Positions 20,507-37,719 of a stretch of DNA of 38,964 nt are shown piece by piece. Source of the DNA: a virus; the UHGV virus genome UHGV-0287902. One strand, 5' to 3'. The number at the start of each line of letters is the position of its first letter. Position 1 is the stretch's first letter. The notes under the pieces are model-generated. The model had not been told where the DNA came from. It saw only the letters and a program-made list of their open reading frames with translations, and ran no database searches. Position numbers and translations under genes: made by a program.

Positions 20507-20549
20507 ACGGTGAGCCGGGCTTACGGCCCGGCCCCTGCGGAGGGCAAAT

Positions 20550-21885: not shown

Positions 21886-21888
21886 CAG

Positions 21889-23669: not shown

Positions 23670-23677
23670 GGTAAGGC

Positions 23678-24043
23678 ATGAGCGGAAAACAGTATCAGGG
23701 CACGGCCACCATCCGTGTGAACGGGCAGGAGTACGACACCCTTGAGGGGGCCACGTTCTCCCCGTCCGGCTTTGAGCGTGAAGTGGTGAAAGGCGCGAAA
23801 GTTTACGGCTATCGCGAGAAACCCCGTGAGGCGACGCTGGACTGTAAATTCCCGGCGGGCGGAGAAGGTTCACCGGCTGCCGATGAAATCAACACCTGGA
23901 CTGCGGTCACGATTGAGTTCGTGGCCGATACCGGTGAAGTCCACATGATGACGAAGGCCTGGAGCAGTGAACCGGCCTCGCTTGACGGTGGTGGTGATAT
24001 CTCCGCGAAGTTCGCCAGCGCCACCAGTACCCGTGTCCAGTAA
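23678..24043 (+). CDS. M: tail tube protein (Mu M-like)
   Basis: 121 aa, synteny. Confidence 0.85.
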   Translation: MSGKQYQGTATIRVNGQEYDTLEGATFSPSGFEREVVKGAKVYGYREKPREATLDCKFPAGGEGSPAADEINTWTAVTIEFVADTGEVHMMTKAWSSEPASLDGGGDISAKFASATSTRVQ

Positions 24044-24057
24044 TCAGGAAAAATGTA

Positions 24058-24534
24058 ATGAGCACACGTAAGAAAAAAACGGCGGTTTCTGACGAGGCCG
24101 TGATGGAGGCTATCCGGGATGCACTTGAAGACGGCGATCCCCGCACCGCCGGGCTGGCTGAACAACTGGCGAACGGCTATGTGGATCTGCTCGACGGTCT
24201 GCCGTTCGGGGAATCCCGTGAATACCGCGTCACCTTCCGCGAACTGACGGCAAAAGACAGCATTGATGCGGAGAGCGAGGCCGAGCGTCTTATGGAAACC
24301 CGAAACGGTCCGGTTCTTGTGGCCTCACCGGCACTGCGCGGCATTGCGCTGCTGCGCCGTCAGATTGCCGCTGTCGGCCAGATTGAGGGGCCATTGTCTC
24401 CGCGTCAGATAGGACAGCTCAGCGAGCGCGATCTCTCCCGACTGATGGCGGCAGTAAGCCTGCTTGATTCCGCGATGGCCGGAAAGCTGGTCGCTGAACG
24501 GGGGCGACCAGATGCAGTGCCGGGATCAGATTGA
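24058..24534 (+). CDS. tail assembly chaperone (Mu gp41-like)
   Basis: 158 aa, directly upstream of tape measure. Confidence 0.7.
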   Translation: MSTRKKKTAVSDEAVMEAIRDALEDGDPRTAGLAEQLANGYVDLLDGLPFGESREYRVTFRELTAKDSIDAESEAERLMETRNGPVLVASPALRGIALLRRQIAAVGQIEGPLSPRQIGQLSERDLSRLMAAVSLLDSAMAGKLVAERGRPDAVPGSD

Positions 24535-24658
24535 AGAAGCCGCAATTGTGCTGGGGATGGTGACAAAAAGCGGCCCGGAGTGGGCGCTTAACCTCCCCTT
24601 ATCGCAGCTTTACCGGCACTGCCGACAGACCGAAAAAATTCTCAGAACGAAGCAGTAA
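24512..24658 (+). CDS. small ORF overlapping chaperone 3' end
   Basis: ATG 24512 with GGGGG RBS, in +1 frame relative to chaperone, ends 3 nt before TMP start. Confidence 0.35.
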   Translation: MQCRDQIEEAAIVLGMVTKSGPEWALNLPLSQLYRHCRQTEKILRTKQ

Positions 24659-24661
24659 CCC

Positions 24662-26719
24662 ATGGCAAAAAACCTGAAAGCCTCCCTGATTGTCGATTTA
24701 CTCGGCAATATTTCTGCCAAATCCCGCCAGTGGTCACAGGAGCTGGGGGCATTCTCCCGTTCCGGCAGGACGGGGCTGGGTGGTCTTGGAAATGCAGCAC
24801 GTCGTGCCGGTCAGGAGACAGAACTTGTCGGCTCCCGTATGCAGCGAACGCTTGCCGGTGTTCGTGGCAGTATCCGCACGGTGACATCAGATTTTGACCG
24901 CCTTCAGGGCAGCATTACCGGCACCATCGGGCGGATAAGCAACCTTTACGGGATGCTGGCGGGAGGGGCTGCGGTCTACGGGTTTAATAAAGCCTTTATC
25001 CGCCCGGCCGCAGAGATGGAGAACTATATTCTGCGTCTCAACGCCATTAATCATGGCGATACGGCAAAAACGGAAGCAGTGAAAGCCTGGGCGGTACAGA
25101 ACGCCAAAGACACCACCTGGGGGCTGGCGGGGGTTATGCAGGAATACGCCTCCAGTCGCGGGTTCGGTATGAGTGACAGGGAAGCCCGTCGCTTTATTAC
25201 CATGCTTCAGGATCAGGGCGGCTATCACGGCTGGTCACTGTCAGATGCACAGGGTGCGTCCCTGCAACTCAAACAGATGTTTGCCCGCCAGAGTATCCAG
25301 GCAGCGGACGCCAATATTCTGACCGGATACGGGATTAACGTTTACCAGTTGCTGGCCGATAAGCTGGGTGTAAACCAGAAGATCATCCGTGAGAAAGGCG
25401 AGAAAGGAAAACTGGGACCGGACAGCATTCGCCTGTTATTTCAGGTGATGGCCGAACAAGCAAAAGGTGCCCAGAAAAACGCCATGAATTCCTGGACGGG
25501 AATGACGTCCATGATGGGCGATGTCTGGGACGGATTTGCCCGCGAGGTGATGGCAAAGGGACCGTTTGACAGCCTGAAAAAGAGCCTGAAAGGCTTTCTG
25601 GATTATGCTGATGCGGCACAGAAAAGCGGCTTACAGGATAAGCTGGCCACACAGACGGCCTCAGCCCTGAATCAGGGATTTGAGTATGCCAGAGACGCTG
25701 CGACCGGCTTTTACCGGGTCATTCAGAAAGTCAGGGAAACGCTTCAGGCACTGCGCGACGCCGGTTATGGCGATGCGCTGGATCGCATTGGTCAGGGTGC
25801 GCAGACCGCCGCAAAGTACCTGATGTATATGTATCTCGCCTCCCGTGCGCTGAAGGTGCTCAGGTTTGCGGGGACGGGGGCATTACGTCTCGGCGCAACC
25901 CCCTTACGCTATGGCATGGCGATGACCTCCGTGCTGACGTCGCCCTTCCGCAAACCGCAGACCACTGTACCGGGAACGCAGCCCGGACGCGCTGGCCGGT
26001 TCCTGAATTTCCTTACCGGGGTAAATCCGGCTGCCGTTCAGCCCGTGCTGGTCACCAACTGGCCTGCGGGTGGCCTGGCCTCAGGTGGCGGGGATGTGGT
26101 GGTCAGCGGTGACGGCAAAACCGTGCGCGGCCGTAAAAAACGCGGCCCCGGACGTGGACGGGGTGTCACGACCGTCGTGACTGCCGGTGAGCAACTGGCG
26201 GAGAGTGCCGGTAAACAGGGCTTCTTCGGTCGTATGATGAGCCGTGCCGGTGGTCTGCTAACGGCGGCCGGAAACCGCATGGGGCTGGGGCGTTTTGCCG
26301 GGCTGTTCCGTGGTGCCGGTCGGCTGGGTGGTGGTGCCCTGTGGGCCGGTGCCATGGCGGCTCCTGTACTGCTGGACAGCAGCGCCAGTGCAGCCGATAA
26401 AGCCGGTGCCGTGGGTTCCCTTGCCGGAAGTATCGCCGGTGGCGCGCTGGGGGCGGCAGCTGGTCCGGTCGGGGTTGCCATTGGTTCCACGGTGGGCAGC
26501 TATCTCGGTGATTATCTGGGGGGCTGGCTGACGCAGGCCTGGCAGAAACTGCGTGGCGGCAGTGACGAAAACGGCGGACAGGCCACCGCGAAAACCGCCG
26601 CACGGGTGGAGCTTGTGGCCCCTGAAGGCTGGCGGGCGCGCAGTATTGATGTGGATGATACCGCACAGCATGGCCTGGATGTGAACGTCTGGAACGGAGG
26701 GAACTATGGCCTCTACTGA
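24662..26719 (+). CDS. tail tape measure protein
   Basis: 685 aa, Gly/Ala-rich C-terminal region. Confidence 0.9.
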   Translation: MAKNLKASLIVDLLGNISAKSRQWSQELGAFSRSGRTGLGGLGNAARRAGQETELVGSRMQRTLAGVRGSIRTVTSDFDRLQGSITGTIGRISNLYGMLAGGAAVYGFNKAFIRPAAEMENYILRLNAINHGDTAKTEAVKAWAVQNAKDTTWGLAGVMQEYASSRGFGMSDREARRFITMLQDQGGYHGWSLSDAQGASLQLKQMFARQSIQAADANILTGYGINVYQLLADKLGVNQKIIREKGEKGKLGPDSIRLLFQVMAEQAKGAQKNAMNSWTGMTSMMGDVWDGFAREVMAKGPFDSLKKSLKGFLDYADAAQKSGLQDKLATQTASALNQGFEYARDAATGFYRVIQKVRETLQALRDAGYGDALDRIGQGAQTAAKYLMYMYLASRALKVLRFAGTGALRLGATPLRYGMAMTSVLTSPFRKPQTTVPGTQPGRAGRFLNFLTGVNPAAVQPVLVTNWPAGGLASGGGDVVVSGDGKTVRGRKKRGPGRGRGVTTVVTAGEQLAESAGKQGFFGRMMSRAGGLLTAAGNRMGLGRFAGLFRGAGRLGGGALWAGAMAAPVLLDSSASAADKAGAVGSLAGSIAGGALGAAAGPVGVAIGSTVGSYLGDYLGGWLTQAWQKLRGGSDENGGQATAKTAARVELVAPEGWRARSIDVDDTAQHGLDVNVWNGGNYGLY

Positions 26720-28064
26720 CACGCCGGGGCGTGGCTCCTTTCGTGGCGTACCGTTCCTGGTTTATCAGGAGCAGCGGGAACGGGGCGGACGTAACATTGT
26801 GCGCCGTGAATACCCACTGCGTGAAAGCGGCGGTGCGGATGATCTGGGGCCAAAACTCCCGGAGTTCACATTCACGGTTCTGGTGACCGGAGACGATCTT
26901 CAGACACAGCGAAGCCGCCTGCGTGATGCGCTGCGTGCACCCGGTGCCGGTGAACTGATGCACCCGGATTACGGCACGTTAAACGTGCTGATAAACAGCT
27001 TTGAAAGCCGTTATAACGCCAGCGAGCAGGGAACGGTTGAGTTCACGATCAACGTGATCCCCGCCAGTGACGATACCGCCCCTGCGGTGGCAGAAGATAC
27101 GGCAGCTGCGCTGGAGCAGAAAAGCGGCTCAGCAATGAATCAGCTGTTTAACACGCTTTCAGACGGCTGGACGGTGATTTCAGACGGTCTGCATGATGTA
27201 CAGGCCATGACCGACACCATCAGCGATAAGATTGATGCACTGGAGAATGCCGTTTCGGGGATGGGGATTGTGCAGGATATCAGTGCCTTTACGGCCAGTT
27301 TTACTGCCCTGAAAGGCAATGCCGCCGCCCTGATTAATGCGCCCCGTCGCATGGCTGAATCGCTGGCCGGAATGTTTGCCGTGCTGACCGGGCTGCCCGG
27401 CGATCCTTCCCTGTCTCTGACCGGAAAAGCCGGAACGCCGTCCGGCAGCCTGACCACAAACCGTGACAGCATAGCAGAGCAGGCCATGCCGCAGCTGTAC
27501 CGCACACTTTCCTCCCTGCGTTACACCCTCAGCGAACAGGATGATCCACAGCGCCTGATTGGTCTGACGCCTGCGGCACAGAACAATATCCGTCTGCTGC
27601 GGAGCGTCATGCAGAGTGCAGCCCTGGTGTCGCAGGCGCAGACGGTCGGAAAACTGCTGGATCAGGTCATCCGGCAGAATACGACGCACGTTCAGGATAC
27701 TGACCGTGCGGGCGGACTGGCCTGGCTGGAAAGTTCTGCTGATGTGCAGCGTATCAACCGGGATTTGAGCGATGCCATGGAACAACAGGTGCTGGATCTG
27801 TCCGCACAGGGCCATACCGGCACCGCCCTTGCATTACGTGATGCAGGGCTTGCGCTGACAGAAGATTTAACCACGCGGAGCGTGCATCTTCCCGGTGCTT
27901 TTCAGGTCATGGTGCGAACCACCGAACCGGCACTGGTCACGCTGTACCGTGCCACCGGTAACAGCCGCCGCTGGCAGTATTTTGTCCGCAGAAACAATAT
28001 CCCCGATCCGGTTTTTGTTCCGGGTGGCCGCCGCGTGGAGGTGATCAGTGAGCAGCAGGATTGA
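26706..28064 (+). CDS. N: DNA circulation protein (Mu N-like)
   Basis: 452 aa, synteny. Confidence 0.8.
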   Translation: MASTDTPGRGSFRGVPFLVYQEQRERGGRNIVRREYPLRESGGADDLGPKLPEFTFTVLVTGDDLQTQRSRLRDALRAPGAGELMHPDYGTLNVLINSFESRYNASEQGTVEFTINVIPASDDTAPAVAEDTAAALEQKSGSAMNQLFNTLSDGWTVISDGLHDVQAMTDTISDKIDALENAVSGMGIVQDISAFTASFTALKGNAAALINAPRRMAESLAGMFAVLTGLPGDPSLSLTGKAGTPSGSLTTNRDSIAEQAMPQLYRTLSSLRYTLSEQDDPQRLIGLTPAAQNNIRLLRSVMQSAALVSQAQTVGKLLDQVIRQNTTHVQDTDRAGGLAWLESSADVQRINRDLSDAMEQQVLDLSAQGHTGTALALRDAGLALTEDLTTRSVHLPGAFQVMVRTTEPALVTLYRATGNSRRWQYFVRRNNIPDPVFVPGGRRVEVISEQQD

Positions 28065-29172
28065 ACTGTATATCGGCGGCAGTATTTTTTCCGGCTGGCT
28101 GACGGTCAGCGTCCGTCGCTCGCTGGAGCATCTGGCCGGGTCGTTTGAACTGGGGCTGATGCTGCCCGGTGAGCGCATCCCCTCAGCCCTGCGGACCGGT
28201 CAGTCCCTGACGCTCAGAATTAACGGGCAGACGGTCATCAGTGGCTGGCTGGATCAGGTCAGTCAGCGGATCAGTGCAACCCGTCATCAGATCAGCATCA
28301 GCGGTCGGGATAAAACCGGCGACCTGGTGGACTGTGCCGCCATCCATCCCGGCAGCCAGTGGCGCAACCGGACGCTGGCACAGATTGCCGCAGATTTATG
28401 TGCGCCCTTCGGGATAGCCGTGCGCTGGCAGGTTAACGACGACACGGCTGCACGCCCCTTCAGCTCTTTTACGCTGGAAAACTCAGAAACCGTGGCGGAT
28501 GCGCTGACCCGTGCTGCCCGGCATCGCGGGGTGCTGGTGACCAGTAATGCTGACGGCGATCTGGTGTTCACCCAGGCAGGAAGCCAGCAGACGGACAGAC
28601 TGGTGCTGGGAGATAACCTGCTTGATGCCGATTACAACACGGACTGGCGAGGACGATACAGCGAATACCGTGTCCGGGGACACGGGCGCGGTGGTGGCAA
28701 ACGGGGAGACAGCGAATCCGCCGCCCGTCTGGCAGCACCTGTGGGCGTCATCAGTGATGAGCAGATCGGCCGCTACCGGCCGAAAATCATCCTCGCCGAT
28801 CAACAGACAGACATCACCGGTGCACGGCAGCGTGCCCTGCGTGAAATGCGCCGTGCGATTGCCCGTTCAGAACGGTTTTCTGCCACCGTGCGTGGCTGGT
28901 TCCGGGATGATGGCCGGTTATGGGATGTCAATCTGCTGACCGGTGTTTCAGCCCTGCGTTTCGGTATAGAACAGACTGAACTGCTGGTCTGTCAGGTAGA
29001 GTTTTTACTTGATGAACATAACGGGGAAGTCACCCAGCTGGTACTGGCACCGCGTGACGGCTTTATCGTTCCGGCAGAGCCGGACAGTAAGGGCCGGGGT
29101 GGTTCCGGTGACGATGTTGATGCCTTTATTCGCCAGCAGATGAAAAAACAGGGGATCAGCTTTGATGAATGA
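28048..29172 (+). CDS. P: baseplate hub / tail protein (Mu P-like)
   Basis: 374 aa, synteny. Confidence 0.8.
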   Translation: MSSRIELYIGGSIFSGWLTVSVRRSLEHLAGSFELGLMLPGERIPSALRTGQSLTLRINGQTVISGWLDQVSQRISATRHQISISGRDKTGDLVDCAAIHPGSQWRNRTLAQIAADLCAPFGIAVRWQVNDDTAARPFSSFTLENSETVADALTRAARHRGVLVTSNADGDLVFTQAGSQQTDRLVLGDNLLDADYNTDWRGRYSEYRVRGHGRGGGKRGDSESAARLAAPVGVISDEQIGRYRPKIILADQQTDITGARQRALREMRRAIARSERFSATVRGWFRDDGRLWDVNLLTGVSALRFGIEQTELLVCQVEFLLDEHNGEVTQLVLAPRDGFIVPAEPDSKGRGGSGDDVDAFIRQQMKKQGISFDE

Positions 29173-29776
29173 TGAAGTGTTCAGCCGCCTGATTGCCCCG
29201 GTAACGCGCGGTATTCGCCTGTTGTTTGGCCGGGGCGTTCTGACCGGCACACATGACGAACTGAAAATGCAGAATGTGCAGCTCACCGGCATGGACGGCG
29301 AAACCTTTGATGATGTGGAGCGTCCCCAGCAGTACGGGCAGATCAGCGTTCCCCTGCCGGGTGCGGAAACCTTTTTTGCCTGTCTGGGCGGACAGCGGGA
29401 TCAGACTGTGGTGCTTGTGGTGGAAGACCGGCGCAGCCGCCCGACCGGACTCACAGCCGGAGATACGGGGGTGTATCACCATGAGGGGCACCGGATACGG
29501 TTAACAAAGGATGGTCGCATTATTGTGACATGCAAAATGCTGGAGATTTACGCCGATGAGGGGATGCGGGTGGATACGCCGGAGGCCACCTTTACGGGCA
29601 ATGTGACGGTGGATAAAAACCTGCATGTTAAGGGTAATTTCGTGCTTGATGGTACAGGTAAATCAGACGGGCTGTTCACGATGTCTGATGCCGTTATTGC
29701 CGGGATCACCTATTCCGGCCATGTGCATCAGGATAACGGCAAAGGCAGTAAGACAGGAGCGCCGGAGAATGGCTGA
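29162..29776 (+). CDS. baseplate spike/assembly protein (Mu gp45-like)
   Basis: 204 aa, synteny. Confidence 0.75.
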   Translation: MMNDEVFSRLIAPVTRGIRLLFGRGVLTGTHDELKMQNVQLTGMDGETFDDVERPQQYGQISVPLPGAETFFACLGGQRDQTVVLVVEDRRSRPTGLTAGDTGVYHHEGHRIRLTKDGRIIVTCKMLEIYADEGMRVDTPEATFTGNVTVDKNLHVKGNFVLDGTGKSDGLFTMSDAVIAGITYSGHVHQDNGKGSKTGAPENG

Positions 29777-30206
29777 TATTGCAATTGTATGGGATCAGGG
29801 GTGCGGTTCGCTGCAACTGAACGGTGCCGACCTGCTGACGGATGACAGTCTGCTGACGGCCGTTCTGATTTCGCTGTTTACTGACCGCCGGGCGCTGGCA
29901 TCGGATGAAATCCCTGACGGTACGCGTGACCGCCGGGGATGGTGGGGAGACAGTTTTCGCCCGCGTCCCATTGGCTCCCGTCTGTGGCTTCTCCGCCGGG
30001 AAAAAACGCTGGCCTCCGTGATAAGCCGTGCCCGTGCCTATGCGGATGAGGCGCTGGGCTGGCTCAGTCAGGATGGCGTGGCGTCATCCGTGGTCTGTCA
30101 TGCAGAACGTGTGGGGCACGCGCGGCTGGCGCTTTCGGTGCGCATAACCCTGCCTGATGGTTCAGTGAGGCCCATGATTTTTTATGCTGATCTTAAGGGG
30201 GAGTAA
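29769..30206 (+). CDS. baseplate protein (Mu gp46-like)
   Basis: ATG 29769 overlaps gp45 stop (ATGGCTGA); track ORF begins 29625. Confidence 0.7.
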   Translation: MADIAIVWDQGCGSLQLNGADLLTDDSLLTAVLISLFTDRRALASDEIPDGTRDRRGWWGDSFRPRPIGSRLWLLRREKTLASVISRARAYADEALGWLSQDGVASSVVCHAERVGHARLALSVRITLPDGSVRPMIFYADLKGE

Positions 30207-31288
30207 TGCCTTATCAGCCTTTACCGCTGGCACAGTTAATCACGCAGACACAGCAGGATATCAGCCAGCGCCTGCCCGGCTCGCAGCCGGGTGTGAATGA
30301 AACCACCCTGAATGCCATTGCTTACGCTCAGGCAGGGTTATCTGCTCAGGAGCATGAGCATCTGGCCTGGATTGCGCGTCAGATCATCCCGACCGAAGCC
30401 GATGAAGCCGAACTGCTGAAACACTGTGCATTCTGGGGCGTCATGCGTAAGCCTGCCTCTCGGGGGGACGGGCCGGTTCAGCTGATGCTGACCACGGATG
30501 CGGGGATCAAGGAAGGTGTGCTTCTCCAGCGAAGTGATGGCGTGGTTTACCGTATCACCACCTCACTGACCGGTAAGGCCGGTACGCTGAATGTCAGTGT
30601 GGAAGCCGAAAGTGCCGGTCGTGCGGGGAATGCCCCGGCAGGGACAAAACTGACATTTATCACACCGCAGGCGGGGATCAACCAGACGGCCACGGTGACA
30701 GGAACGGGGATCACCGGTGGTGCGGATGTGGAAACCGTGCCGGAGCTGCTTTCCCGTCTGGTTTTCCGGGTGCAGAATCCACCGTCCGGCGGCACGCAGT
30801 ATGATTTTGAACGCTGGGCGCGTGAAGTGCCGGGTGTGACGCGGGCATGGTGCCGCCCGGAATGGCCGCAGGCGGGCAGCGTGGGGGTAACGTTTGTTCA
30901 GGATAATAACCCGGATATTTTCCCCGGTGACGGTGATGTTCAGCGGGTGGCGGATTATATCCGCAGTCATGATGATCCGGCGACCGGCCAGCCTGTCGGA
31001 CAGCCTCTGGGGCCGACGGTGACCGTGTTTAAACTGACCAATAAGCCGGTGCCCTTCAGCATCAGGATCATCCCGAAAACACCGGAGAATCAGGCGGCCG
31101 TAAAACAGGCGCTGACCGACCTGTTATACAACGAATCCCGGCCCGGCGGTCTGGTTCTGCCGTCGTCTTTCTGGCGTGCTGTGGCGGGGGTGAAAAATCT
31201 GGAGGATTTTGAAGTGCGCAGTCCGCTGACGTCAGTTCAGGCGGGAGACAGTGAGCTGCTGACGGTGGGAGAAATCACATGGCTGTAA
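30206..31288 (+). CDS. baseplate J-like protein (Mu gp47-like)
   Basis: 360 aa, synteny. Confidence 0.85.
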   Translation: MPYQPLPLAQLITQTQQDISQRLPGSQPGVNETTLNAIAYAQAGLSAQEHEHLAWIARQIIPTEADEAELLKHCAFWGVMRKPASRGDGPVQLMLTTDAGIKEGVLLQRSDGVVYRITTSLTGKAGTLNVSVEAESAGRAGNAPAGTKLTFITPQAGINQTATVTGTGITGGADVETVPELLSRLVFRVQNPPSGGTQYDFERWAREVPGVTRAWCRPEWPQAGSVGVTFVQDNNPDIFPGDGDVQRVADYIRSHDDPATGQPVGQPLGPTVTVFKLTNKPVPFSIRIIPKTPENQAAVKQALTDLLYNESRPGGLVLPSSFWRAVAGVKNLEDFEVRSPLTSVQAGDSELLTVGEITWL

Positions 31289-31839
31289 CCCTGACCCCAC
31301 ATCAGCGCGCCCTGTTGCAGTTACTGCCTGACGGGCTGGCATGGGACAAGCGTCCGTCATCCGTACTGGCATCATTATGTCTGGGCCTCAGTCATTCGAC
31401 AGCGCGTGTATCCTGGACGGGTAAACAGCTGCTTGCCGAGCGTTTCCCTGACACGTCGCGCCTGCTGCTGGAAGACTGGGAGCGTTATCTCGGGCTTCCC
31501 GAGTGTGATATGGCCGGAGCCACCCTCACGGAGCGACAGCGTTATGCCGGCAATAAATACCGGATGAAGCCCTCGCTGAACCGTGAATTTTATATCCGGT
31601 TTGCGGCGGAGTTTGGTTATCAGATTGACATTCAGCCCTCACCGGATTCGCAGTGGGTCAGTATTGTCACGATTAACAGTGAAACCGGCTACCGGAATAT
31701 GAATGTGCTGGATGATATTCTCACGCCGCTGCGTATTTATGAAGGCGGTGCGCTGGAATGTATTCTGAACCGTTATAAGCCTGCATGGCAGACGTTTATT
31801 TACGTTTATGCAAACAGCCATGAAGAGGAGACTATTTAA
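31279..31839 (+). CDS. tail protein (Mu gp48-like)
   Basis: 186 aa, precedes tail fibre gene. Confidence 0.75.
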
Positions 31840-32720
31840 TGTTTCATGTTGATAATAATTCCGGCGTGGCGAATATGCCTGCGCTGGCACCGGCGCAGAG
31901 TAATACCACCACCTGGTTTACCGAAGGTGACGGACAAAAAGGTATCAGCTGGATTGGTCAGGACTGGCTGAATATTATCCAGGCCGAACTGCTGAATATT
32001 CTGGCTGAAGCCAGTATTCAGCCGGATAAGGCGCAGTTAAACCAGCTTACGCTGTCCATTAAAGCCATTATCGCTGCGAATGCCTTTTCCCGGAAAAATA
32101 ACCTGAAAGAAATTGCTGATGCCGGTGCGGAGGCCCAGCGTCTGGCCCGTGGTTATCTTGGTCTGGGGACGCTTGCCACAAAAAACAGTCTTGGTCCCGC
32201 TGACGTTAATGCCCTGGCGAAGGATCAGAATCTCGCCGACCTGGAGAATAAGGGAACCGCCCGTAATAATCTGGATGTTTACAGCAAAAGCGAAGGTGAT
32301 AACCGTTACCTGCGCAGGGAGCAGAACGGCGCAGACATTCCGGATAAAGGGGCTTTTATCGATAACGTCGGTTTACGGGAAACGGTGAATAAGGCGGCGA
32401 ATGCTCTGCCATCGTACGGAACGGCCGTTGCCGCGAACAGGCTGGCAAATGCCCACACAATTAATGGTGTTCCCTTTGACGGGACGCAGGATATCACTAT
32501 CTCATCAGGAACAGTAACCGCCATAAGACTGGGGTCGGTGACCGCACATATGCCCGGAACATGGGAAAGCTGGGATCTGAATCTGTGGGGCGGCAATGTT
32601 CTTACCGGAATTAAAGTACAGGATGTCGGTAAGAATACGGCAGATAACGTCGGCGGCGTGTATTACCGGTCGTTGCAGTATCTGTTAAATGGAGCATGGG
32701 TGACGGCTGCAAGTATATAA
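31839..32720 (+). CDS. S: tail fibre protein: constant part to about 32368 fused to variable C-terminal cassette in current orientation
   Basis: 293 aa; inversion crossover site lies in codon about 177. Confidence 0.85.
32356..32381 (+). other. gix-like recombination site, left
   Basis: TTATCGATAACG-TC-GGTTTACGGGAA, close to the Mu gix sequence as I recall it. Confidence 0.7.
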
Positions 32721-32729
32721 TGATATTCA

Positions 32730-32753
32730 GAAGGCCTTCCGGCCTTCTTTATT
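32730..32753. terminator. bidirectional hairpin between convergent fibre and fibre-assembly genes
   Basis: GAAGGCC-ttcc-GGCCTTC followed by TTTATT. Confidence 0.5.
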
Positions 32754-33273
32754 ACTGTGGCTGCTCAGGCCATTTAATGGCGTTAAATTCAGCTTCTGTT
32801 TTAATGGCGGGCAGTTCCATTTTCTTCACCTGACTGATGTATGCCATCCATTGGGTAAGTGCTGCTCTGTCTTCATCGCTGATGGTGTCCAGTTGTAGCT
32901 CCGTTCTCCAGTCATTAATTTTTTCATATGCCTGATTAAGATATGACTGGCGCATTGCTTCCAGTTTTCTTGCGTAGTTAACCGGAATACGGGAGATTAT
33001 GCCATTATCAAACTTCCAGTTTCCTGAAATATCCGTGCCTTCAGGGAGTTCATCGACCTCAACCACAGAAAACCCCGCAGGATACAGCGCCGAGGCGTCC
33101 TGTGATATTGAGCAGATAACGCCGCTGTCAGGTGTTATGCAAAGTTTATATTTTTTGGTGAATAATGGCAGGGATTCGTAGAAATCCTTACCATCTTCAC
33201 TCTGGAAATACTGAACATTATTACCATATGGCATATTTTCAGGATAATAACGGGTTATATTTTTTAGTTCCAT
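32752..33273 (-). CDS. tail fibre assembly protein (U'-type chaperone), silent orientation
   Basis: 173 aa; directly downstream of the minus-strand alternative fibre cassette. Confidence 0.8.
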   Translation of the reverse strand: MELKNITRYYPENMPYGNNVQYFQSEDGKDFYESLPLFTKKYKLCITPDSGVICSISQDASALYPAGFSVVEVDELPEGTDISGNWKFDNGIISRIPVNYARKLEAMRQSYLNQAYEKINDWRTELQLDTISDEDRAALTQWMAYISQVKKMELPAIKTEAEFNAIKWPEQPQ

Positions 33274-33324
33274 AAAATCCTCCTGGAAATAAATCTGTTT
33301 TAAAATATATTATTTACTGACTAT

Positions 33325-33686
33325 TTATAACTGAGATACCGTAATCCATGTACCTCCGACTAATTTTTGCAGGGGTCTGAATGCTATAAAATCGTTTGAA
33401 GCATCAACTTTACTGTCAATCTGCAGGCCTGCCATAACATTACCGTACGCAGAGTAATATGCCCCACCGTACATTACCTGCCTGTTCTCTGCTCCCAGCC
33501 TGATATCCTGGATATATCGGGAATCCGCATCCTGCTGTGTTATACCAGAAGTGATGTTTATGTCCTGCGTCCCGTCAAAGGGAACCCCATTAATATTTCT
33601 TGGGGTGGCGAGTCTATTCGCGGCAACGGCGGTGCCGTCCGATGGCAGAGCATTCGCCGCCCTGTTTACCGTTTCCCGTAAACCGA
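33325..33686 (-). CDS. alternative tail-fibre C-terminal cassette (Sv'), no own start
   Basis: Minus frame open from right gix site to TAA at 33325-33327; encodes ...[29 protein letters not shown]...[16 protein letters not shown]...VGGTWITVSQL; in frame with constant part after inversion. Confidence 0.6.
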
Positions 33687-33698
33687 GGTTTTCAGGAA
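33673..33698 (-). other. gix-like recombination site, right
   Basis: Plus strand TTCCCGTAAACC-GA-GGTTTTCAGGAA, inverted copy of left site. Confidence 0.7.
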
Positions 33699-33763
33699 AG
33701 CCAGGATTAACTCTGTTTTATTCCTCATGCGACAATTCCGGCTTTTTATAATAAGGAAATCGT

Positions 33764-34336
33764 ATGCTGATTGGGTATATCAGGGTGTCAACAAATGACC
33801 AGAATACGGCGCTACAAAGAAATGCGCTGGAATGTGCAGGATGTGAGCTGTTTTTCGAAGACAGAATAAGCGGTAAGACAAGGGAGCGTCCCGGACTTAA
33901 ACGCGCATTAAAGCGACTCCGGCCAGGGGATACCCTGCTGGTCTGGAAACTGGATCGCCTTGGACGCAGTATGCAGCACCTTGTCCTTTTAACAGAAGAA
34001 CTCCGGCAACGCGGCGTTAACTTCCGCAGCATTACGGACAATATTGATACATCCACTCCCATGGGACGTTTCTTTTTCCATATAATGGGCGCGCTGGCGG
34101 AAATGGAGCGGGAACTCATTATTGAACGTACACGCGCGGGTCTTGCTGCTGCCCGTGCTCAGGGGCGTCATGGCGGCAGACCTCAGAAACTGACAGAGAA
34201 AGAGCGGGAGCAAATCGCCCGTTTGCTGGCTAATGGCGAGTCCCGTAAACAAATCGCACTGATATTTGATATTGGCCTTTCCACCCTTTATCGTTATTTT
34301 CCTGCCTCACCAGCTCCGTCACCAAAAGTACCGTGA
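33764..34336 (+). CDS. gin: serine DNA invertase (Gin/Hin/Pin family)
   Basis: 190 aa; N-terminal GYIRVSTNDQ catalytic-serine motif; C-terminal HTH; RBS AAGGAAAT. Confidence 0.95.
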   Translation: MLIGYIRVSTNDQNTALQRNALECAGCELFFEDRISGKTRERPGLKRALKRLRPGDTLLVWKLDRLGRSMQHLVLLTEELRQRGVNFRSITDNIDTSTPMGRFFFHIMGALAEMERELIIERTRAGLAAARAQGRHGGRPQKLTEKEREQIARLLANGESRKQIALIFDIGLSTLYRYFPASPAPSPKVP

Positions 34337-34421
34337 CGCTTTTTTGAATTTCCGCAAAACACATATTTTTCAGCGGTCGCTATTCTGACTCTGTTTAATT
34401 CAGAAACAGGCAGAAAAGACG

Positions 34422-36476
34422 ATGTCAGACTCCAAGTGGAAAATGCTCTCCGCCATGCCCGGAGAGTTTTCAGTCAAGGTTGCCGGTGGCACGGTGGCAT
34501 TTATTGAAAGCCCTTTCCGCCCTTCGGGTAATAAAGGGGGGATCACCTTCGCAGACTGCGTGATCCGCTTCAGCACGAAAGAGCCATTATGGGTAATGCC
34601 GGTATCCGGTAATCCCAGTGCAGAAATCACCAGTTCAGGCGTGACTGGCATCATTCCAATCACATCTGACGTGGCCGGAACGCTCACGCCCTCCGACTGG
34701 AATGCACCGGATAACGCCGGGCCTTCCGGTAGCACGAATGGCAGCAGTTCAGAGCCGGAATATTACTTTGTTGTCATTCTCGCGGGTCAGTCAAATGGCA
34801 TGGCCTACGGCGAGGGGCTGCCGTTACCGGATTCGTTTGACCGCCCGGACCCACGCATTAAGCAACTGGCACGCCGCAGTACGGTAACGCCCAACGGTAC
34901 GTCGTGTACATACAACGACATCATTCCGGCAGACCACTGCCTGCATGATGTTCAGGATATGAGCGGGATAAACCACCCGAAAGCTGATCTGGCAAAAGGC
35001 CAGTACGGGACTGTCGGTCAGGGGTTGCATATTGCCAAAAAACTGCTTCCCTATATCCCACAGAATGCCGGGATACTTCTGGTGCCCTGTTGTCGTGGCG
35101 GGTCAGCATTCACCACTGGAGCCGACGGCTCATTCAGTGAGGCCAGCGGTGCTTCCGCTGATTCTTCACGCTGGGGGGCCGGTAAACCTCTGTATCAGGA
35201 CCTGGTAAGCCGCACCAAAGTCGCGCTGGCGAAAAACCCGAAAAACAAACTTCTGGCTGTGGTCTGGATGCAGGGAGAGGCAGACCTTGCCTCAGGAAGC
35301 CAGCAGCATAATAGTTTATTCACGGCCATGGTTCAGCAGTTCAGAACTGACCTGGCTCCGCTTGCTGCGCAGTGCGTGAGTGGAAATGCCACCACGGTGC
35401 CGTGGATTTGCGGTGATACCACGTATTACTGGAAAAACGCTGGCACCGATAAATATGAGGCAGTATACGGTGGCTACAAAGGCAAGGAAGCACAGAAAAT
35501 TTTCTTTGTACCGTTCCTGACGGATGAGAATGGACAGAGCACGCCAACGAATGCTCCGGCGGAAGACCCGGATATTGTGGCTGTCGGGTATTACGGTGCA
35601 GCATCCCGAACCCAGGGCAGTTTTGTTTCGACACAGCGTGACAGCCATTTCAGCTCATGGGCACGCAGGGGCGTCATTTCAGACCGTCTGGCCTCAGCTA
35701 TTATGCTCCATGCAGGGCGCACGGCTGAACTGATGCGCGGGCAGACCGTGACACCACCGGATGAGAAGCCGTCACCTGATACACCATCAAAACCGTCCAC
35801 GCCACCCGCAGACACCACGACGATGAGTACGCTATTTGCTTACCGGGCATCTGAGTCTGAAGGACGGTTGACACCACAGGGTTGGGCTGCCGGAGGTGGC
35901 AAGGCTCAAATCGTGGATGATGCCGGAGCCAGCGGGGGTAAGGCAATGAAACTGACCAAGGAAACAGGAAGAGCCCCCTGGTACCTTGAGCATGATGCTG
36001 GTAATGGTGCGGACCTGCTGGGTAAAGGTGGTCTTGTCAGTTGTCGTTTTAAACTCGATGGCGCGCTTACGGCTAATCAGTACGCACTGGCGCTGTACTG
36101 GCCGGTTTCTGCCCTGCCGCAAGGGGTTACTCTGGAAGGAAATGCCGGTCATAACCTGCTGGCATCGTTCTACGTACAGAGCGATGCCACAGACCTTAAC
36201 GTGATGTATCACAAAGGAAACACGGCGCAGAACACGAAGTTGGGGTCATTCGGCGCATTTAATAACGAATGGCATACGCTGGGCTTCCGTTTTGCCGGTA
36301 ACAACAGTATTGAGGTGACGCCGGTCATTGATGGTAAGGACGGGACACCATTCATGCTGTCGCAGTCTTCGGTCGGCACGTTTACGGCAGACAAGTTGCG
36401 CGTGACCGATATCACTAAAAATGCGACTTACCCGGTACTGATTGACAGTATCGTGGTGGAAGTGAATAACGCGTAA
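34422..36476 (+). CDS. SASA-domain carbohydrate O-acetylesterase (NanS-like) with C-terminal jelly-roll-like domain
   Basis: 684 aa; ILAGQSNGMAYGE motif, later RDSHF; Pro/Ser/Thr linker PPDEKPSPDTPSKPSTPPADTT; weak RBS. Confidence 0.8.
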   Translation: MSDSKWKMLSAMPGEFSVKVAGGTVAFIESPFRPSGNKGGITFADCVIRFSTKEPLWVMPVSGNPSAEITSSGVTGIIPITSDVAGTLTPSDWNAPDNAGPSGSTNGSSSEPEYYFVVILAGQSNGMAYGEGLPLPDSFDRPDPRIKQLARRSTVTPNGTSCTYNDIIPADHCLHDVQDMSGINHPKADLAKGQYGTVGQGLHIAKKLLPYIPQNAGILLVPCCRGGSAFTTGADGSFSEASGASADSSRWGAGKPLYQDLVSRTKVALAKNPKNKLLAVVWMQGEADLASGSQQHNSLFTAMVQQFRTDLAPLAAQCVSGNATTVPWICGDTTYYWKNAGTDKYEAVYGGYKGKEAQKIFFVPFLTDENGQSTPTNAPAEDPDIVAVGYYGAASRTQGSFVSTQRDSHFSSWARRGVISDRLASAIMLHAGRTAELMRGQTVTPPDEKPSPDTPSKPSTPPADTTTMSTLFAYRASESEGRLTPQGWAAGGGKAQIVDDAGASGGKAMKLTKETGRAPWYLEHDAGNGADLLGKGGLVSCRFKLDGALTANQYALALYWPVSALPQGVTLEGNAGHNLLASFYVQSDATDLNVMYHKGNTAQNTKLGSFGAFNNEWHTLGFRFAGNNSIEVTPVIDGKDGTPFMLSQSSVGTFTADKLRVTDITKNATYPVLIDSIVVEVNNA

Positions 36477-36482
36477 GCAGGA

Positions 36483-36525
36483 TAAAAAAATGCCGCCGGT
36501 AAGGGAAAACAAGAAACCGGCGGCA
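36483..36525 (-). terminator. hairpin terminator oriented for minus-strand transcripts
   Basis: 10-bp stem TGCCGCCGGT/ACCGGCGGCA, 15-nt loop; T-run only on minus strand. Confidence 0.45.
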
Positions 36526-36620
36526 AAAAGATCGTTATATCCAAAGCAAAAAATGCAGTGCACCTTTTTACCTAACAGATATTACCGGTGTCAACACCAT
36601 GTCAATAATTGGGAGGGATA

Positions 36621-36803
36621 ATGACATTTTTACAGCTTATTTTATTGTATTTCTGCACGGCAGTATGTGCGTTATATCTGGTGAGTGGTGGTTATAAGGC
36701 CATCAGAAATTATGTTCGCCGCAAAATTGAGGACGCAGCAGCTGAAAAACTCAGTAAAACAGCGCAGGCAACTCCGCTCCCAAAAGACCCGACCCAGCCC
36801 TGA
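36621..36803 (+). CDS. small membrane protein
   Basis: 60 aa from ATG 36621 with GGGAGGG RBS; one N-terminal TM helix. Confidence 0.55.
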   Translation: MTFLQLILLYFCTAVCALYLVSGGYKAIRNYVRRKIEDAAAEKLSKTAQATPLPKDPTQP

Positions 36804-36838
36804 TTGCAGGGCTTTATTCCCGCATAAGGAGGATATAC

Positions 36839-37093
36839 ATGCCAGAAATTAAAGGCACCGTCACTGAAGACCTGGTAAAACAGGCACTGTATTCCGGTGA
36901 AGTAAATAAGTTGCTGAAAGCGCAGGTCCGCAAGGATTTTGAGGCACAAATCGACACTTACGTTGATGAGGTGCTGGAAAAACTTATTGGGCCAGCAGCA
37001 GCGGCCAGTGATGCTGATAATGAACCGAAAACCGACGCGCAGCCAGAGCAACCAGAACCGGCTCAGCCCGGAACTGACAGCACCATGATGTAA
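36839..37093 (+). CDS. small acidic protein
   Basis: 84 aa; strong RBS AAGGAGGA; acidic Pro/Glu-rich C-terminus. Confidence 0.6.
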   Translation: MPEIKGTVTEDLVKQALYSGEVNKLLKAQVRKDFEAQIDTYVDEVLEKLIGPAAAASDADNEPKTDAQPEQPEPAQPGTDSTMM

Positions 37094-37100
37094 CAATACA

Positions 37101-37131
37101 AACCGGCAGTTTCTCCTGTCGGTTTTATTTT
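37101..37131 (+). terminator. intrinsic terminator after acidic protein gene
   Basis: AACCGGCAG-tttctc-CTGTCGGTT (one G-U) followed by TTATTTT. Confidence 0.55.
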
Positions 37132-37168
37132 CATGGGCGCTTTATATACCAATCAGAGGACAATAATC

Positions 37169-37369
37169 ATGGACAAGAATAAAAAGCAACCTGATACCAA
37201 AGGCCTGGAAAGATTAAGCGCGGAAATTATCAATGCGCTACGTTCAGGACTTGATGAAGATACATTACAGGATCGAAACTTCGCCACCGCAATGTGGATA
37301 GCTATGCAGATCCTGTGTACCCCAAGATGCGCTATTTTTGCGGTTCGCGAAGGTCAACTGACTCGCTGA
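37169..37369 (+). CDS. hypothetical small protein
   Basis: 66 aa from ATG 37169 with AGAGGA RBS; track ORF begins 37133. Confidence 0.45.
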   Translation: MDKNKKQPDTKGLERLSAEIINALRSGLDEDTLQDRNFATAMWIAMQILCTPRCAIFAVREGQLTR

Positions 37370-37538
37370 TTGCACGAATTACATCAGAAAAGCACGCGTT
37401 CCATAACTGCATAGCGGATGAATCACCTGCTGTATGAAAAGAGGTAAAGTTACCCCTGGTGGATGTCATTGCTGCAATTGTAATATCAGCTGCAATTCGC
37501 GCAGCCTGTAACTTTGGGTCTGTGGTTAGTTTATCCAT
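37332..37538 (-). CDS. hypothetical small protein, convergent with 37169-37369
   Basis: 68 aa; AGGA 3 nt upstream of ATG; 38-bp 3' overlap with plus ORF. Confidence 0.3.
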   Translation of the reverse strand: MDKLTTDPKLQAARIAADITIAAMTSTRGNFTSFHTAGDSSAMQLWNACFSDVIRAISESVDLREPQK

Positions 37539-37645
37539 TTTTCCTGCCTGAACAGATATATCTCTGCTTTACAGGAGACCGGGGAATATCATAGGATACG
37601 CCACGAGCTCGAAGTAAAGCATTGATGCAAGTTTTTACAGATTGA

Positions 37646-37684
37646 CCCAGCATAGTTCCAGCTATGCTGGGTTTCCCTTTTATG
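37646..37684 (+). terminator. strong intrinsic terminator upstream of com-mom control region
   Basis: 10-bp stem CCCAGCATAG/CTATGCTGGG, loop ttccag, then TTTCCCTTTTAT. Confidence 0.65.
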
Positions 37685-37719
37685 TAGTATCCTGTTGATT
37701 TGAAACATACTACATATGC

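What the first reader, a model, noticed from the sequence alone, without database searches (positions are those of the whole stretch)
34422..37684. Accessory island between gin and com-mom: NanS-like O-acetylesterase plus small ORFs
In canonical Mu, as I recall it, gin is followed almost directly by com-mom. Here about 3.5 kb intervene: a 684-aa protein with the SASA hallmark GQSN motif, a Pro/Ser/Thr linker and a C-terminal beta-rich domain, then three small + ORFs with good RBSs, a possible convergent minus ORF and hairpin terminators. Such esterases are known from lambdoid prophages of enteric pathogens; placement as cargo in a Mu-like prophage suggests lysogenic conversion (glycan de-O-acetylation) or a virion receptor-modifying enzyme. 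The small ORFs match nothing I recognise.
Basis: partly seen in the sequence, partly recalled or inferred. Interest (0 to 1): 0.65.

Follow-up and report, generated by a model that had tools for sequence, protein, structure and literature searches.

The report
NanS-p sialate esterase cassette in Mu-like prophage
The 3.6-kb block between gin and com-mom is the well-known prophage sialic-acid O-acetylesterase cassette (NanS-p plus DUF1378 and DUF826) of lambdoid E. coli phages; it is a standard part of a common E. coli Mu-like prophage lineage, and its only unusual feature is a different N-terminal domain where the lambdoid enzymes carry their capsid anchor.

Summary
The 684-aa ORF (34422-36476) is a NanS-p-family sialate O-acetylesterase. 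Residues 110-428 match NanS (PDB 3PT5, E=1.8e-117) and 469-683 match the NanS-p lectin-like C-domain (6YP6, E=1e-96). All four SGNH blocks and the four sugar-site aromatics are conserved. Two of the "unrecognised" small ORFs are DUF1378 and DUF826, the usual neighbours of nanS-p in Stx and other lambdoid phages.

The block is not rare. Two diverged alleles (28 and 205 genomes) together match the 233 of 5,426 complete E. coli genomes that carry this lineage's com-mom end, O157:H7 included. RefSeq annotates it as "DUF6645 domain-containing protein"; nr calls it "sialate O-acetylesterase".

What differs is the N-terminus. Instead of DUF1737, recently reported as the phi24B capsid anchor, Mu-like copies carry an orphan ~90-aa all-beta domain found only in Mu-like prophage esterases. 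A ~1.8-kb tract of the esterase body is 85-100% identical to a lambdoid allele, so the body recombines between phage types while the N-domain stays carrier-specific. Whether that domain anchors the enzyme to the Mu-like virion is untested. Verdict: new variant of a known kind, modest interest.

The parts
33764..34336 (+). gin-type DNA invertase (left flank of the island)
   Evidence: Pfam Resolvase 1.6e-51 plus HTH_7; phrog_125 DNA invertase.
34422..34700 (+). Esterase residues 1-93: an orphan all-beta N-terminal domain specific to Mu-like carriers. It sits where lambdoid and P2-like NanS-p proteins have DUF1737.
   Evidence: No Pfam hit. Only 3 hits among 1.84 billion representatives, all starts of esterases. 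About 60% identical to the O157/L003 Mu-like allele and 30% to a Salmonella Mu-like allele. dN is 0.27 with dS saturated. AF2 model has pLDDT of about 80-89 over residues 1-80 and is all-beta. No significant fold match.
34701..34754 (+). Ser/Gly/Pro-rich linker (residues 94-111). The junction of the N-domain swap lies at its end.
   Evidence: In alignment A6, similarity to DUF1737-type proteins begins at PEYYF, about residue 112. pLDDT is below 50.
34755..35729 (+). SGNH/SASA catalytic domain (residues 112-436)
   Evidence: PDB 3PT5 NanS, E=1.8e-117 over residues 110-428. Pfam SASA 1.5e-13. Blocks GQSN122, RGGS225, QGE284 and RDSH406 are present. dN/dS is 0.09.
35730..35825 (+). Pro/Ser/Thr-rich interdomain linker (residues 437-468)
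   Evidence: Read directly from the sequence. Poorly conserved; dN/dS is 0.72.
35826..36476 (+). C-terminal lectin-like jelly-roll domain (DUF6645), residues 469-684, plus the stop codon
   Evidence: PDB 6YP6 NanS-p C-domain, E=1.1e-96. Pfam DUF6645 4e-67. Aromatics Y554, Y559, Y584 and F654 are conserved.
34920..36660 (.). Tract that is 85-100% identical at the DNA level to the nanS-p cassette of a lambdoid prophage (L011). It marks an inter-phage recombination tract.
   Evidence: Sliding identity profile. The carrier is lambdoid: NinE/X/F, RusA, Q, holin, lysozyme, Rz.
36491..36525 (.). GC-rich 10-bp hairpin downstream of the esterase stop codon. The U-tail is present only on the minus strand.
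   Evidence: -20 kcal/mol, z -4.3 (plus strand) and -5.0 (minus strand). It lies inside the tract shared with the lambdoid cassette.
36621..36803 (+). DUF1378 small protein (60 aa) with one N-terminal hydrophobic helix
   Evidence: Pfam DUF1378 1.2e-32; phrog_494. Hydropathy about 2 over the first ~25 residues. 52% identical to the 933W counterpart and 73% to the L003 counterpart.
36839..37093 (+). DUF826 small acidic protein (84 aa)
   Evidence: Pfam DUF826 3.9e-15; phrog_311 1e-28. 17 acidic against 8 basic residues. 41% identical to the 933W counterpart.
37100..37133 (+). Intrinsic terminator that closes the three-gene cassette
   Evidence: 10-bp stem plus UUUUAUUUU.
37169..37369 (+). 66-aa ORF of unknown function, inside a segment (37130-37540) that the O157-type prophage lacks
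   Evidence: RefSeq calls it WP_001388991 / WP_001536755. No family hit. The segment occurs in 17 of 5,426 genomes and is absent from L009.
37531..37830 (-). 5' part of a degraded minus-strand gene (phrog_26524). It is an intact 154-aa ORF in the O157-type prophage.
   Evidence: phrog_26524 1.3e-43. RefSeq flags it as a pseudogene. The intact homolog is at L009 6461..6925.
37644..37685 (+). 13-bp hairpin plus U-rich tail upstream of the com-mom control region; a possible insulator or terminator
   Evidence: -21.7 kcal/mol, z -5.5. It lies in a region 99% identical to the O157-type prophage.
37945..38836 (+). com (37945..38145) and mom (38099..38836), the right flank
   Evidence: Pfam Zn_ribbon_Com 2e-12; Mom 2.4e-77.

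Best explanation
The island is the NanS-p cassette (nanS-p, DUF1378, DUF826), closed by its own terminator and followed by a small hypervariable slot. It is a long-standing component of an E. coli, Shigella and Salmonella Mu-like prophage lineage.

The 684-aa protein is a three-part enzyme:
1. An SGNH/SASA catalytic domain. It uses the Ser of GQSN (S124) and the His of RDSH (H409) to remove O-acetyl groups from 9-O-acetylated sialic acids (Neu5,9Ac2) and O-acetylated mucin glycans.
2. A C-terminal lectin-like jelly-roll domain that targets the enzyme to glycans.
3. An N-terminal module that is specific to the type of carrier phage. It is DUF1737 in lambdoid and P2-like phages and an unrelated ~90-aa beta domain in Mu-like phages.

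The esterase body is exchanged between Mu-like and lambdoid prophages by homologous recombination. The N-terminal module stays with its phage type.

Shown here: domain identities, conservation of catalytic and sugar-site residues, purifying selection, cassette synteny, prevalence, and the recombination tract.

Inferred from characterised homologs at 65-90% identity: the substrate. De-O-acetylation would make host sialic acids usable by the lysogen population and/or modify the mucus that the phage meets.

Not determined: the timing and promoter of expression, whether the enzyme rides on the virion, and what DUF1378 and DUF826 do.
For: - Domains: NanS 3PT5 E=1.8e-117; NanS-p C-domain 6YP6 E=1.1e-96. 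SASA plus DUF6645. phrog_143 E=1.9e-296.
- Residues: SGNH blocks and sugar-site aromatics are conserved (block and residue definitions from PMC10462455).
- Selection: dN/dS is 0.09 in the catalytic domain and 0.17 in the C-domain; the N-domain has dN 0.27 with saturated dS.
- Cassette partners: DUF1378 and DUF826 hits. The same trio occurs in 933W upstream of holin S and in a non-Stx lambdoid prophage.
- Mu-like synteny: seen in three diverged Mu-like prophages, L003, L009/L014 and Salmonella L007.
- Prevalence: 28 + 205 genomes against 233 with this com-mom end.
- N-domain by carrier: DUF1737 in 933W and a P2-like phage; the orphan domain occurs only in Mu-like esterases.
- Same body with either N-domain: the junction is at about residue 112, and the shared tract is 85-100% identical over 34920-36660.
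- Homolog function: NanS-p enzymes cleave Neu5,9Ac2 and mucin O-acetyl groups and support growth on Neu5,9Ac2 (review PMC8065619).
Against: - No activity data exist for this allele or for any Mu-like allele.
- The defining DUF1737 N-domain of NanS-p is absent.
- The gene is not next to lysis genes here; these lie at about 10.2-11.4 kb in the window. The lambdoid expression logic (Q-dependent late transcript, release at lysis) therefore cannot simply be transferred.
- No convincing promoter was found upstream. The only sigma-70-like match is 9/12, inside the 3' end of gin, and the number of such matches is not above chance.
- DUF1378 and DUF826 have no known function, so their role in the mechanism is unknown.
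Confidence: 0.8

Rival explanations
1. Virion-borne enzyme. The Mu-type N-terminal domain is a virion-attachment module, the functional counterpart of DUF1737. The esterase is displayed on the capsid or tail of the Mu-like particle, where it binds and de-O-acetylates mucus sialoglycans, and it may later be released by proteolysis in the linkers.
For: - In phi24B the DUF1737 domain of NanS-p sits as a hexamer in capsid hexon centres, and the esterase is a processed virion protein (bioRxiv 10.64898/2026.04.10.717836).
- The N-domain correlates strictly with carrier type, while the body recombines freely.
- The N-domain is under purifying selection and is conserved down to 30% identity in a distant Salmonella Mu-like prophage at the same locus.
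- A flexible Ser/Gly-rich linker follows it.
- The gene lies next to the tail-fibre/G-segment module.
Against: - The N-domain shows no sequence or fold similarity to any known virion protein, decoration protein or tail adaptor, and it has no paralog in the prophage.
- Its predicted all-beta fold differs from DUF1737, which is a helix plus three strands.
- The major capsid protein is 98% identical between the two Mu-like alleles while the N-domain is only ~60% identical, so the two have not co-diverged.
- No virion proteomics are available for this lineage.
Confidence: 0.3
2. Soluble public-good or lysogenic-conversion enzyme. The protein is not structural. It is made in the lysogen (for example by read-through from gin) or late in induction and released by lysis. 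It makes Neu5,9Ac2 available as a carbon source to sibling cells. The N-domain would then be an extra glycan-binding or oligomerisation module.
For: - This is the role proposed and partly demonstrated for lambdoid NanS-p alleles (PMC8065619).
- There is no plus-strand terminator between gin and the esterase, so low constitutive co-transcription with gin is possible.
- There is no signal peptide, which is consistent with release by lysis.
Against: - It does not explain why the N-terminal module tracks the phage type so strictly.
- The DUF1737 precedent argues that N-domains in this family are virion anchors.
- No promoter has been identified.
Confidence: 0.4
3. Receptor-access enzyme. The esterase removes O-acetyl groups from bacterial surface glycans (O-antigen, capsule or colanic acid) to help adsorption, or to block superinfection. 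Host mucin sialic acids would not be the target.
For: - The idea has been raised for NanS-p in the literature (PMC8065619).
- PHROG tail and tail-fibre families give weak hits to the SGNH region (phrog_25867 at 1.2e-6, phrog_4201 at 0.017).
- A distant homolog is annotated as a minor tail protein in an Arthrobacter phage.
- The gene lies next to the tail-fibre region.
Against: - The catalytic domain is closely related to the sialate-specific chromosomal NanS (E=1.8e-117), and the sugar-site aromatics of the NanS-p lectin domain are all retained. The specificity of characterised homologs therefore probably applies.
- The N-terminus has no tailspike or adaptor-like features.
Confidence: 0.08
4. 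Decaying cargo: a non-functional remnant that the prophage carries passively.
For: - The slot just downstream (37130-37830) does show decay and replacement.
- The region contains a hairpin oriented as a minus-strand terminator.
Against: - The ORF is full-length and intact in more than 230 genomes.
- There is strong purifying selection (dN/dS 0.09-0.17).
- All catalytic motifs are intact.
Confidence: 0.02

Closest known systems
NanS-p (933W L0105/z1466; phi24B vb_24B_21/gp84), the prophage-borne sialate O-acetylesterase of lambdoid Stx and non-Stx prophages
   Same: - The catalytic SGNH/SASA domain is 70% identical to 933W, and up to about 90% identical to some lambdoid alleles.
- The C-terminal lectin-like DUF6645 domain matches 6YP6.
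- The four SGNH blocks and the four sugar-site aromatics are the same.
- DUF1378 and DUF826 follow it, as in lambdoid phages.
   Different: - The N-terminal DUF1737 capsid-binding domain is replaced by an unrelated ~90-aa all-beta domain.
- The carrier is a transposable Mu-like myovirus.
- The location is between gin and com-mom rather than between Q/stx and the S-R-Rz lysis genes.

Chromosomal NanS (YjhS) of E. coli, PDB 3PT5
   Same: The catalytic domain is closely related over residues 110-428 (E=1.8e-117), with the same motif variants.
   Different: In the solved chain, NanS is essentially the catalytic domain alone (337 residues, aligned 16-331). The window protein adds an N-terminal domain, two linkers and a lectin-like C-domain, and it is phage-borne.
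Canonical Mu, D108 and SfMu right end (gin-com-mom)
   Same: The order is the same: G-segment, gin, com and mom, then the right end. Mom is about 71% identical at the DNA level.
   Different: Mu has 94 bp between gin and com. This lineage has 3.6 kb carrying the esterase cassette. The rest of the prophage is only about 70% identical to Mu at the DNA level.
O157:H7-type Mu-like prophage (example: strain F1273, inserted in gsiA; from memory, the Sp18-type prophage of strain Sakai) and the Mu-like element inserted in Stx2c phage LC727881
   Same: The layout is identical: gin, a 679-680-aa esterase with the same type of N-domain, DUF1378, DUF826, a minus-strand ORF, then com and mom.
   Different: - It is a different allele. 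The esterase is 66% identical overall (N-domain ~60%), with saturated dS.
- Its esterase body is closer to 933W (80-81%).
- The minus-strand ORF is an intact 154-aa ORF.
- It lacks the window segment 37130-37540.

Membership tests
NanS-p (prophage sialate O-acetylesterase) | SGNH/SASA catalytic domain homologous to NanS, with blocks I-IV (GQSN, RGGS, QGE, RxSH) | tested here: met
   3PT5 E=1.8e-117. SASA 1.5e-13. GQSN122, RGGS225, QGE284 and RDSH406 are present. Block IV is defined as RSSH/RASH in PMC10462455.
NanS-p (prophage sialate O-acetylesterase) | C-terminal lectin-like jelly-roll domain (DUF6645) with conserved aromatic sugar-site residues | tested here: met
   6YP6 E=1.1e-96. DUF6645 4e-67. 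Y554, Y559, Y584 and F654 align with Y510, Y515, Y540 and F611.
NanS-p (prophage sialate O-acetylesterase) | N-terminal DUF1737 domain | tested here: not met
   No DUF1737 hit even at E up to 0.1, whereas 933W (4e-18) and a P2-like homolog (7e-7) do hit. Residues 1-93 are an unrelated all-beta domain.
NanS-p (prophage sialate O-acetylesterase) | Followed by the DUF1378 and DUF826 small genes | tested here: met
   (1.2e-32 and 3.9e-15). The same order is seen in 933W and L011.
NanS-p (prophage sialate O-acetylesterase) | Located in the late region of a lambdoid prophage, downstream of Q/stx and upstream of S-R-Rz | tested here: not met
   The carrier is a Mu-like prophage. The gene lies between gin and com-mom, about 24 kb from the lysis genes.
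NanS-p (prophage sialate O-acetylesterase) | Esterase activity on Neu5,9Ac2 and O-acetylated mucin glycans | not testable with these tools
   Inferred only from characterised homologs (PMC8065619).
DUF1737-type capsid-decoration domain (phi24B gp84 N-domain) | Small alpha/beta fold (one helix plus three antiparallel strands) that forms hexamers in hexon centres | tested here: not met
   The predicted N-domain is all-beta with five strands and a pLDDT of about 80-89 over residues 1-80. It has no sequence similarity to DUF1737. Binding to virions could not be tested.
SGNH-esterase tailspikes and tail fibres (phage receptor-modifying deacetylases) | N-terminal particle-binding adaptor or trimeric fibre/spike architecture homologous to tail proteins | tested here: not met
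   The only tail-family hits are weak PHROG matches to the SGNH core itself. The N-domain has no significant match in PDB or BFVD.
Muvirus-type right end (gin immediately followed by com-mom) | gin and com separated only by the roughly 100-bp mom control region | tested here: not met
   94 bp in Mu against 3,608 bp here. The expanded layout is the norm within this prophage lineage.

The most novel reading that the evidence does not exclude
NanS-p would be a modular plug-in virion-decoration enzyme. The conserved esterase-lectin body moves between unrelated phage types (lambdoid, P2-like, Mu-like) by homologous recombination. A short N-terminal module specific to each phage type docks it onto that phage's particle. 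On this reading, the orphan ~90-aa beta domain (residues 1-93) is a previously unrecognised Mu-type virion anchor that replaces DUF1737. DUF1378 and DUF826 would be conserved helpers for its assembly, processing or release.
Probability: 0.3. Interest if true: 0.55.

Novelty: new variant of a known kind. Interest (0 to 1): 0.33.

Why it matters
NanS-p esterases are thought to help pathogenic E. coli feed on O-acetylated sialic acids in gut mucus. A 2026 preprint reports that one of them is a capsid-decorating protein, attached through its DUF1737 domain.

This locus shows that the same enzyme body is also a fixed component of a common Mu-like prophage lineage, present in about 4% of complete E. 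coli genomes and in many STEC. There it carries a different, carrier-specific N-terminal module. That gives a clean natural experiment on what the N-domain does: virion docking, or something else. It also documents recombination of a fitness cassette between unrelated temperate phage families. Finally, nanS-p copy-number surveys that look only at lambdoid prophages or at DUF1737 proteins will undercount.

This refines a known system. It is not a new one.

Tried and rejected
- Full-length AF2 from a single sequence gave pLDDT 32 and was unusable. It was replaced by an N-domain model built with 5 sequences.
- Searches for N-domain relatives found only esterase N-termini from E. coli, Shigella and Salmonella. 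These were the word-indexed search, the exhaustive HMMER search over 1.84 billion representatives and a profile search. A genome-contig scan with the N-domain profile found nothing.
- No paralog of the N-domain exists in the window.
- A Mu C-activator box (TTAT-N6-ATAA) was tried as a sign of late regulation. There is one exact match, at 36814-36827, which is not above chance (25% of shuffles). It is badly placed, and the motif does not mark this phage's lys or head operons. The idea was dropped.
- The sigma-70 promoter scan gave nothing above background.
- A defence-system role for the small ORFs was checked: no PADLOC hits and no meaningful NCBIfam hits.
- Rfam and tRNA scans of the window were empty.
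- Co-divergence of the N-domain with the major capsid protein was tested and not seen: the capsid protein is 98% identical and the N-domain ~60%.
- Literature searches for a Mu-like nanS-p description found none in the held library. Rangel et al. 2016 (J Bacteriol 198:2803) could not be read, so prior description there cannot be excluded.

Full report
**1. Observation**

The window is a complete Mu-like prophage. It runs from repressor, Ner-like HTH, transposase A/B, Gam and a Mor/C-family activator, through lysis, head, tail and baseplate genes, to the G-segment, gin, and com-mom. In near-identical copies it is inserted in a fimbrial usher gene.

gin (33764..34336) and com (37945..38145) are separated by 3,608 bp. 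In phage Mu the same two genes are 94 bp apart.
- The 684-aa ORF at 34422..36476 with GQSN, a Pro/Ser/Thr linker and a beta-rich C-domain.
- Three small plus-strand ORFs with Shine-Dalgarno sequences: 36621..36803, 36839..37093 and 37169..37369.
- Minus-strand ORFs: 37531..37830 and 37332..37538.
- Three stable hairpins.

**2. What the big protein is**

Residues 110-428 align with chromosomal NanS/YjhS (PDB 3PT5, E=1.8e-117). Residues 469-683 align with the crystallised C-terminal domain of NanS-p (PDB 6YP6, E=1.1e-96). Pfam gives SASA plus DUF6645, and PHROGs gives phrog_143 at E=1.9e-296.

The four SGNH blocks are intact: GQSN122, RGGS225, QGE284 and RDSH406. Block IV is RSSH/RASH in NanS and NanS-p according to PMC10462455. 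The four aromatic residues proposed to bind sugar in the phi24B protein are conserved as Y554, Y559, Y584 and F654. dN/dS against the other Mu-like allele is 0.09 for the catalytic domain and 0.17 for the C-domain.

Homologs at 65-90% identity are experimentally active Neu5,9Ac2 and mucin O-acetylesterases (review PMC8065619). The esterase assignment is therefore secure at the family level. Activity of this particular allele is inferred.

**3. The 'unrecognised' small ORFs**

36621..36803 is DUF1378 (E=1.2e-32). It is a 60-aa protein with one N-terminal hydrophobic helix. 36839..37093 is DUF826 (E=3.9e-15), an acidic 84-aa protein.

In 933W the order is stx2AB, nanS-p, a DUF1378 ORF, a DUF826 ORF (hidden inside an annotated 148-aa ORF), then holin S. 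A non-Stx lambdoid prophage has the order Q, methyltransferase, nanS-p, DUF1378, a DUF826-like ORF, holin, lysozyme, Rz. PMC10462455 also notes DUF826 and DUF1378 ORFs between nanS-p and S.

The island is therefore the known three-gene cassette, and an intrinsic terminator closes it at 37100-37133.

Downstream, 37130-37830 is a variable slot:
- In the window, a 66-aa ORF of unknown function plus a degraded phrog_26524 gene.
- In the O157-type prophage, an intact 154-aa ORF of that phrog_26524 family.
- In strain JKHS016, a different 86-aa ORF.

**4. Distribution**

The layout gin, esterase, DUF1378, DUF826, com-mom recurs in:
- The Mu-like element inserted in Stx2c phage LC727881.
- The Mu-like prophage of O157:H7 strain F1273.
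- In part, a distant Salmonella enterica Mu-like prophage, which has gin, two other small ORFs, and then the start of the esterase at a contig end.

Among 5,426 complete E. coli genomes:
- The window-type N-domain allele covers at least 80% of the query in 28 genomes.
- The O157-type allele is in 205 genomes.
- This lineage's com-mom end is in 233 genomes.

28 + 205 = 233, so the cassette is essentially universal in the lineage. This compares totals, not a per-genome cross-check. RefSeq names the protein "DUF6645 domain-containing protein", and nr calls it "sialate O-acetylesterase".

**5. What is different: the N-terminus**

Lambdoid (933W) and P2-like carriers have DUF1737 at the N-terminus. 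The window protein has no DUF1737.

Residues 1-93 form a domain with these properties:
- It is ~60% identical to the O157/L003 allele and 30% identical to the Salmonella allele.
- It is under purifying selection: dN is 0.27 and dS is saturated.
- It has no other relative among 1.84 billion representative proteins.
- It has no paralog in the prophage.

This matters because a 2026 preprint reports that the DUF1737 domain of phi24B gp84 (a NanS-p) binds as a hexamer in capsid hexon centres. The same preprint reports that the esterase is a processed virion protein.

**6. Mosaicism**

- The O157/L003-type esterase body is closer to 933W (80-81%) than to the window's body (69-74%).
- Conversely, some DUF1737-type lambdoid proteins are 87-90% identical to the window protein from about residue 112 to the end.
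- At the DNA level, the window is 85-100% identical to such a lambdoid locus from about 34920 to 36660. That tract includes the intergenic hairpin and the 5' half of DUF1378. Identity is below 60-65% on both sides.
- So the esterase body is exchanged by recombination between Mu-like and lambdoid prophages, while the N-terminal module remains carrier-specific.
- Between the two Mu-like alleles, gin (81%), esterase (66%), DUF1378 (76%) and DUF826 (71%) are all diverged. MuA, the major capsid protein and mom are 98-99% identical.
- The N-domain does not co-diverge with the capsid protein. That is mild evidence against a tightly co-evolving capsid contact.

**7. Mechanism**

Most likely (confidence 0.8): the protein is a NanS-p-type sialate O-acetylesterase with a lectin-like targeting domain, acting on O-acetylated host sialoglycans.

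Its mode of deployment is open:
- Soluble enzyme released at lysis or expressed at a low level with gin (about 0.4). There is no terminator between gin and the esterase, and no signal peptide.
- Virion-displayed through the Mu-type N-domain, by analogy with DUF1737 (about 0.3).
- Action on bacterial surface glycans (about 0.08).
- A decaying remnant is excluded by the conservation data.

No promoter could be assigned. The sigma-70 scan was at background, and a Mu C-box search was uninformative.

**8. Novelty and verdict**

The family, its function, its cassette partners and its presence in prophages are all known, and the block is common and already annotated.

I did not find the Mu-like carriage or the replacement of DUF1737 by a distinct carrier-specific domain described in the searchable literature. 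One key paper (Rangel et al. 2016) could not be read.

I rate this a new variant of a known kind, with interest of about 0.33. Interest would rise to about 0.55 if the N-domain proves to be a Mu-type virion anchor.

Noticed in passing
window 37750-37905: The region upstream of com is rich in GATC sites. It includes a 25-bp palindrome, AATCGATCGTTTTTGTCGATCGATT (37877-37901), and TGATCATTTTATGATCG (about 37758-37775). From memory, this resembles the Dam-methylation/OxyR-controlled mom promoter region of Mu, but the Mu C-box (TTATGCCCCAATAA) is absent.
   Followed up: partly
window 36814-36827: A perfect TTAT-N6-ATAA dyad (TTATTCCCGCATAA) lies in the DUF1378-DUF826 spacer. It is the only exact match in the window and resembles the Mu C-protein site. 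It is not statistically unusual (25% of shuffles) and lies only 12 nt from the DUF826 ATG.
   Followed up: partly
window 36491-36525: The strong hairpin after the esterase stop codon has an A-run before it and its U-run only on the minus strand, so it looks like a terminator for antisense transcription. It is conserved within the tract shared with a lambdoid prophage.
   Followed up: partly
window 37644-37685: A 13-bp perfect hairpin with a U-rich tail lies on the plus strand, inside the remnant minus-strand ORF. It is 99% conserved with the O157-type prophage. It could insulate com-mom from upstream read-through.
   Followed up: no
window 31839-33760 (G-segment): The invertible tail-fibre region is short and asymmetric: a 293-aa fibre gene, one tail-fibre assembly gene on the minus strand, and a truncated S'-type fibre fragment that RefSeq calls a pseudogene. 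The constant part (31600-32400) is 94-100% identical to the O157-type prophage, while the variable part is only 44-75% identical.
   Followed up: partly
window about 17656-17735 (minus strand): In FORC_069, RefSeq annotates a 'tRNA-OTHER' between the head-morphogenesis and virion-morphogenesis genes. ARAGORN and Rfam find no tRNA or other RNA family anywhere in the window.
   Followed up: yes
whole window compared with L008 (FORC_069) and L014 (O157:H7 F1273): The window is a mosaic. It is 99.9% identical to FORC_069 over 33700-38900 but only about 92-96% over the rest. Its early region (339-6508) is 98% identical to the O157-type prophage, while the stretch from the protease gene through the sheath, tape-measure and baseplate genes (18893-32511) is only about 80% identical. 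No genome examined matches it end to end.
   Followed up: partly
L007 7426-7910 (Salmonella enterica Mu-like prophage): This distant Mu-like prophage has two different small ORFs between gin and its esterase: 58 aa (phrog_6330) and 87 aa (phrog_20491, with weak Xre-like HTH matches). It could be a small regulatory or toxin-antitoxin-like pair. The contig ends inside the esterase, so the downstream genes are unknown.
   Followed up: partly
L005 4905-5397 (phage 933W): The RefSeq 933W record annotates a single 148-aa 'hypothetical protein' (ST933Wp43) downstream of nanS-p. The sequence is better explained as separate genes: a 59-aa DUF1378 ORF (4905..5084) and a DUF826-type gene whose product starts at MSEITS inside the 148-aa reading frame.
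   Followed up: partly
window linkers: esterase residues 94-111 and 437-468: The phi24B preprint proposes self-processing at SSP-containing motifs in both linkers. The O157/L003 Mu-like allele has SSSP at the first linker. The window allele has SSSEP there and no SSP in the second linker (PSPDTPSKPSTPP). Processing may therefore differ between alleles.
   Followed up: no
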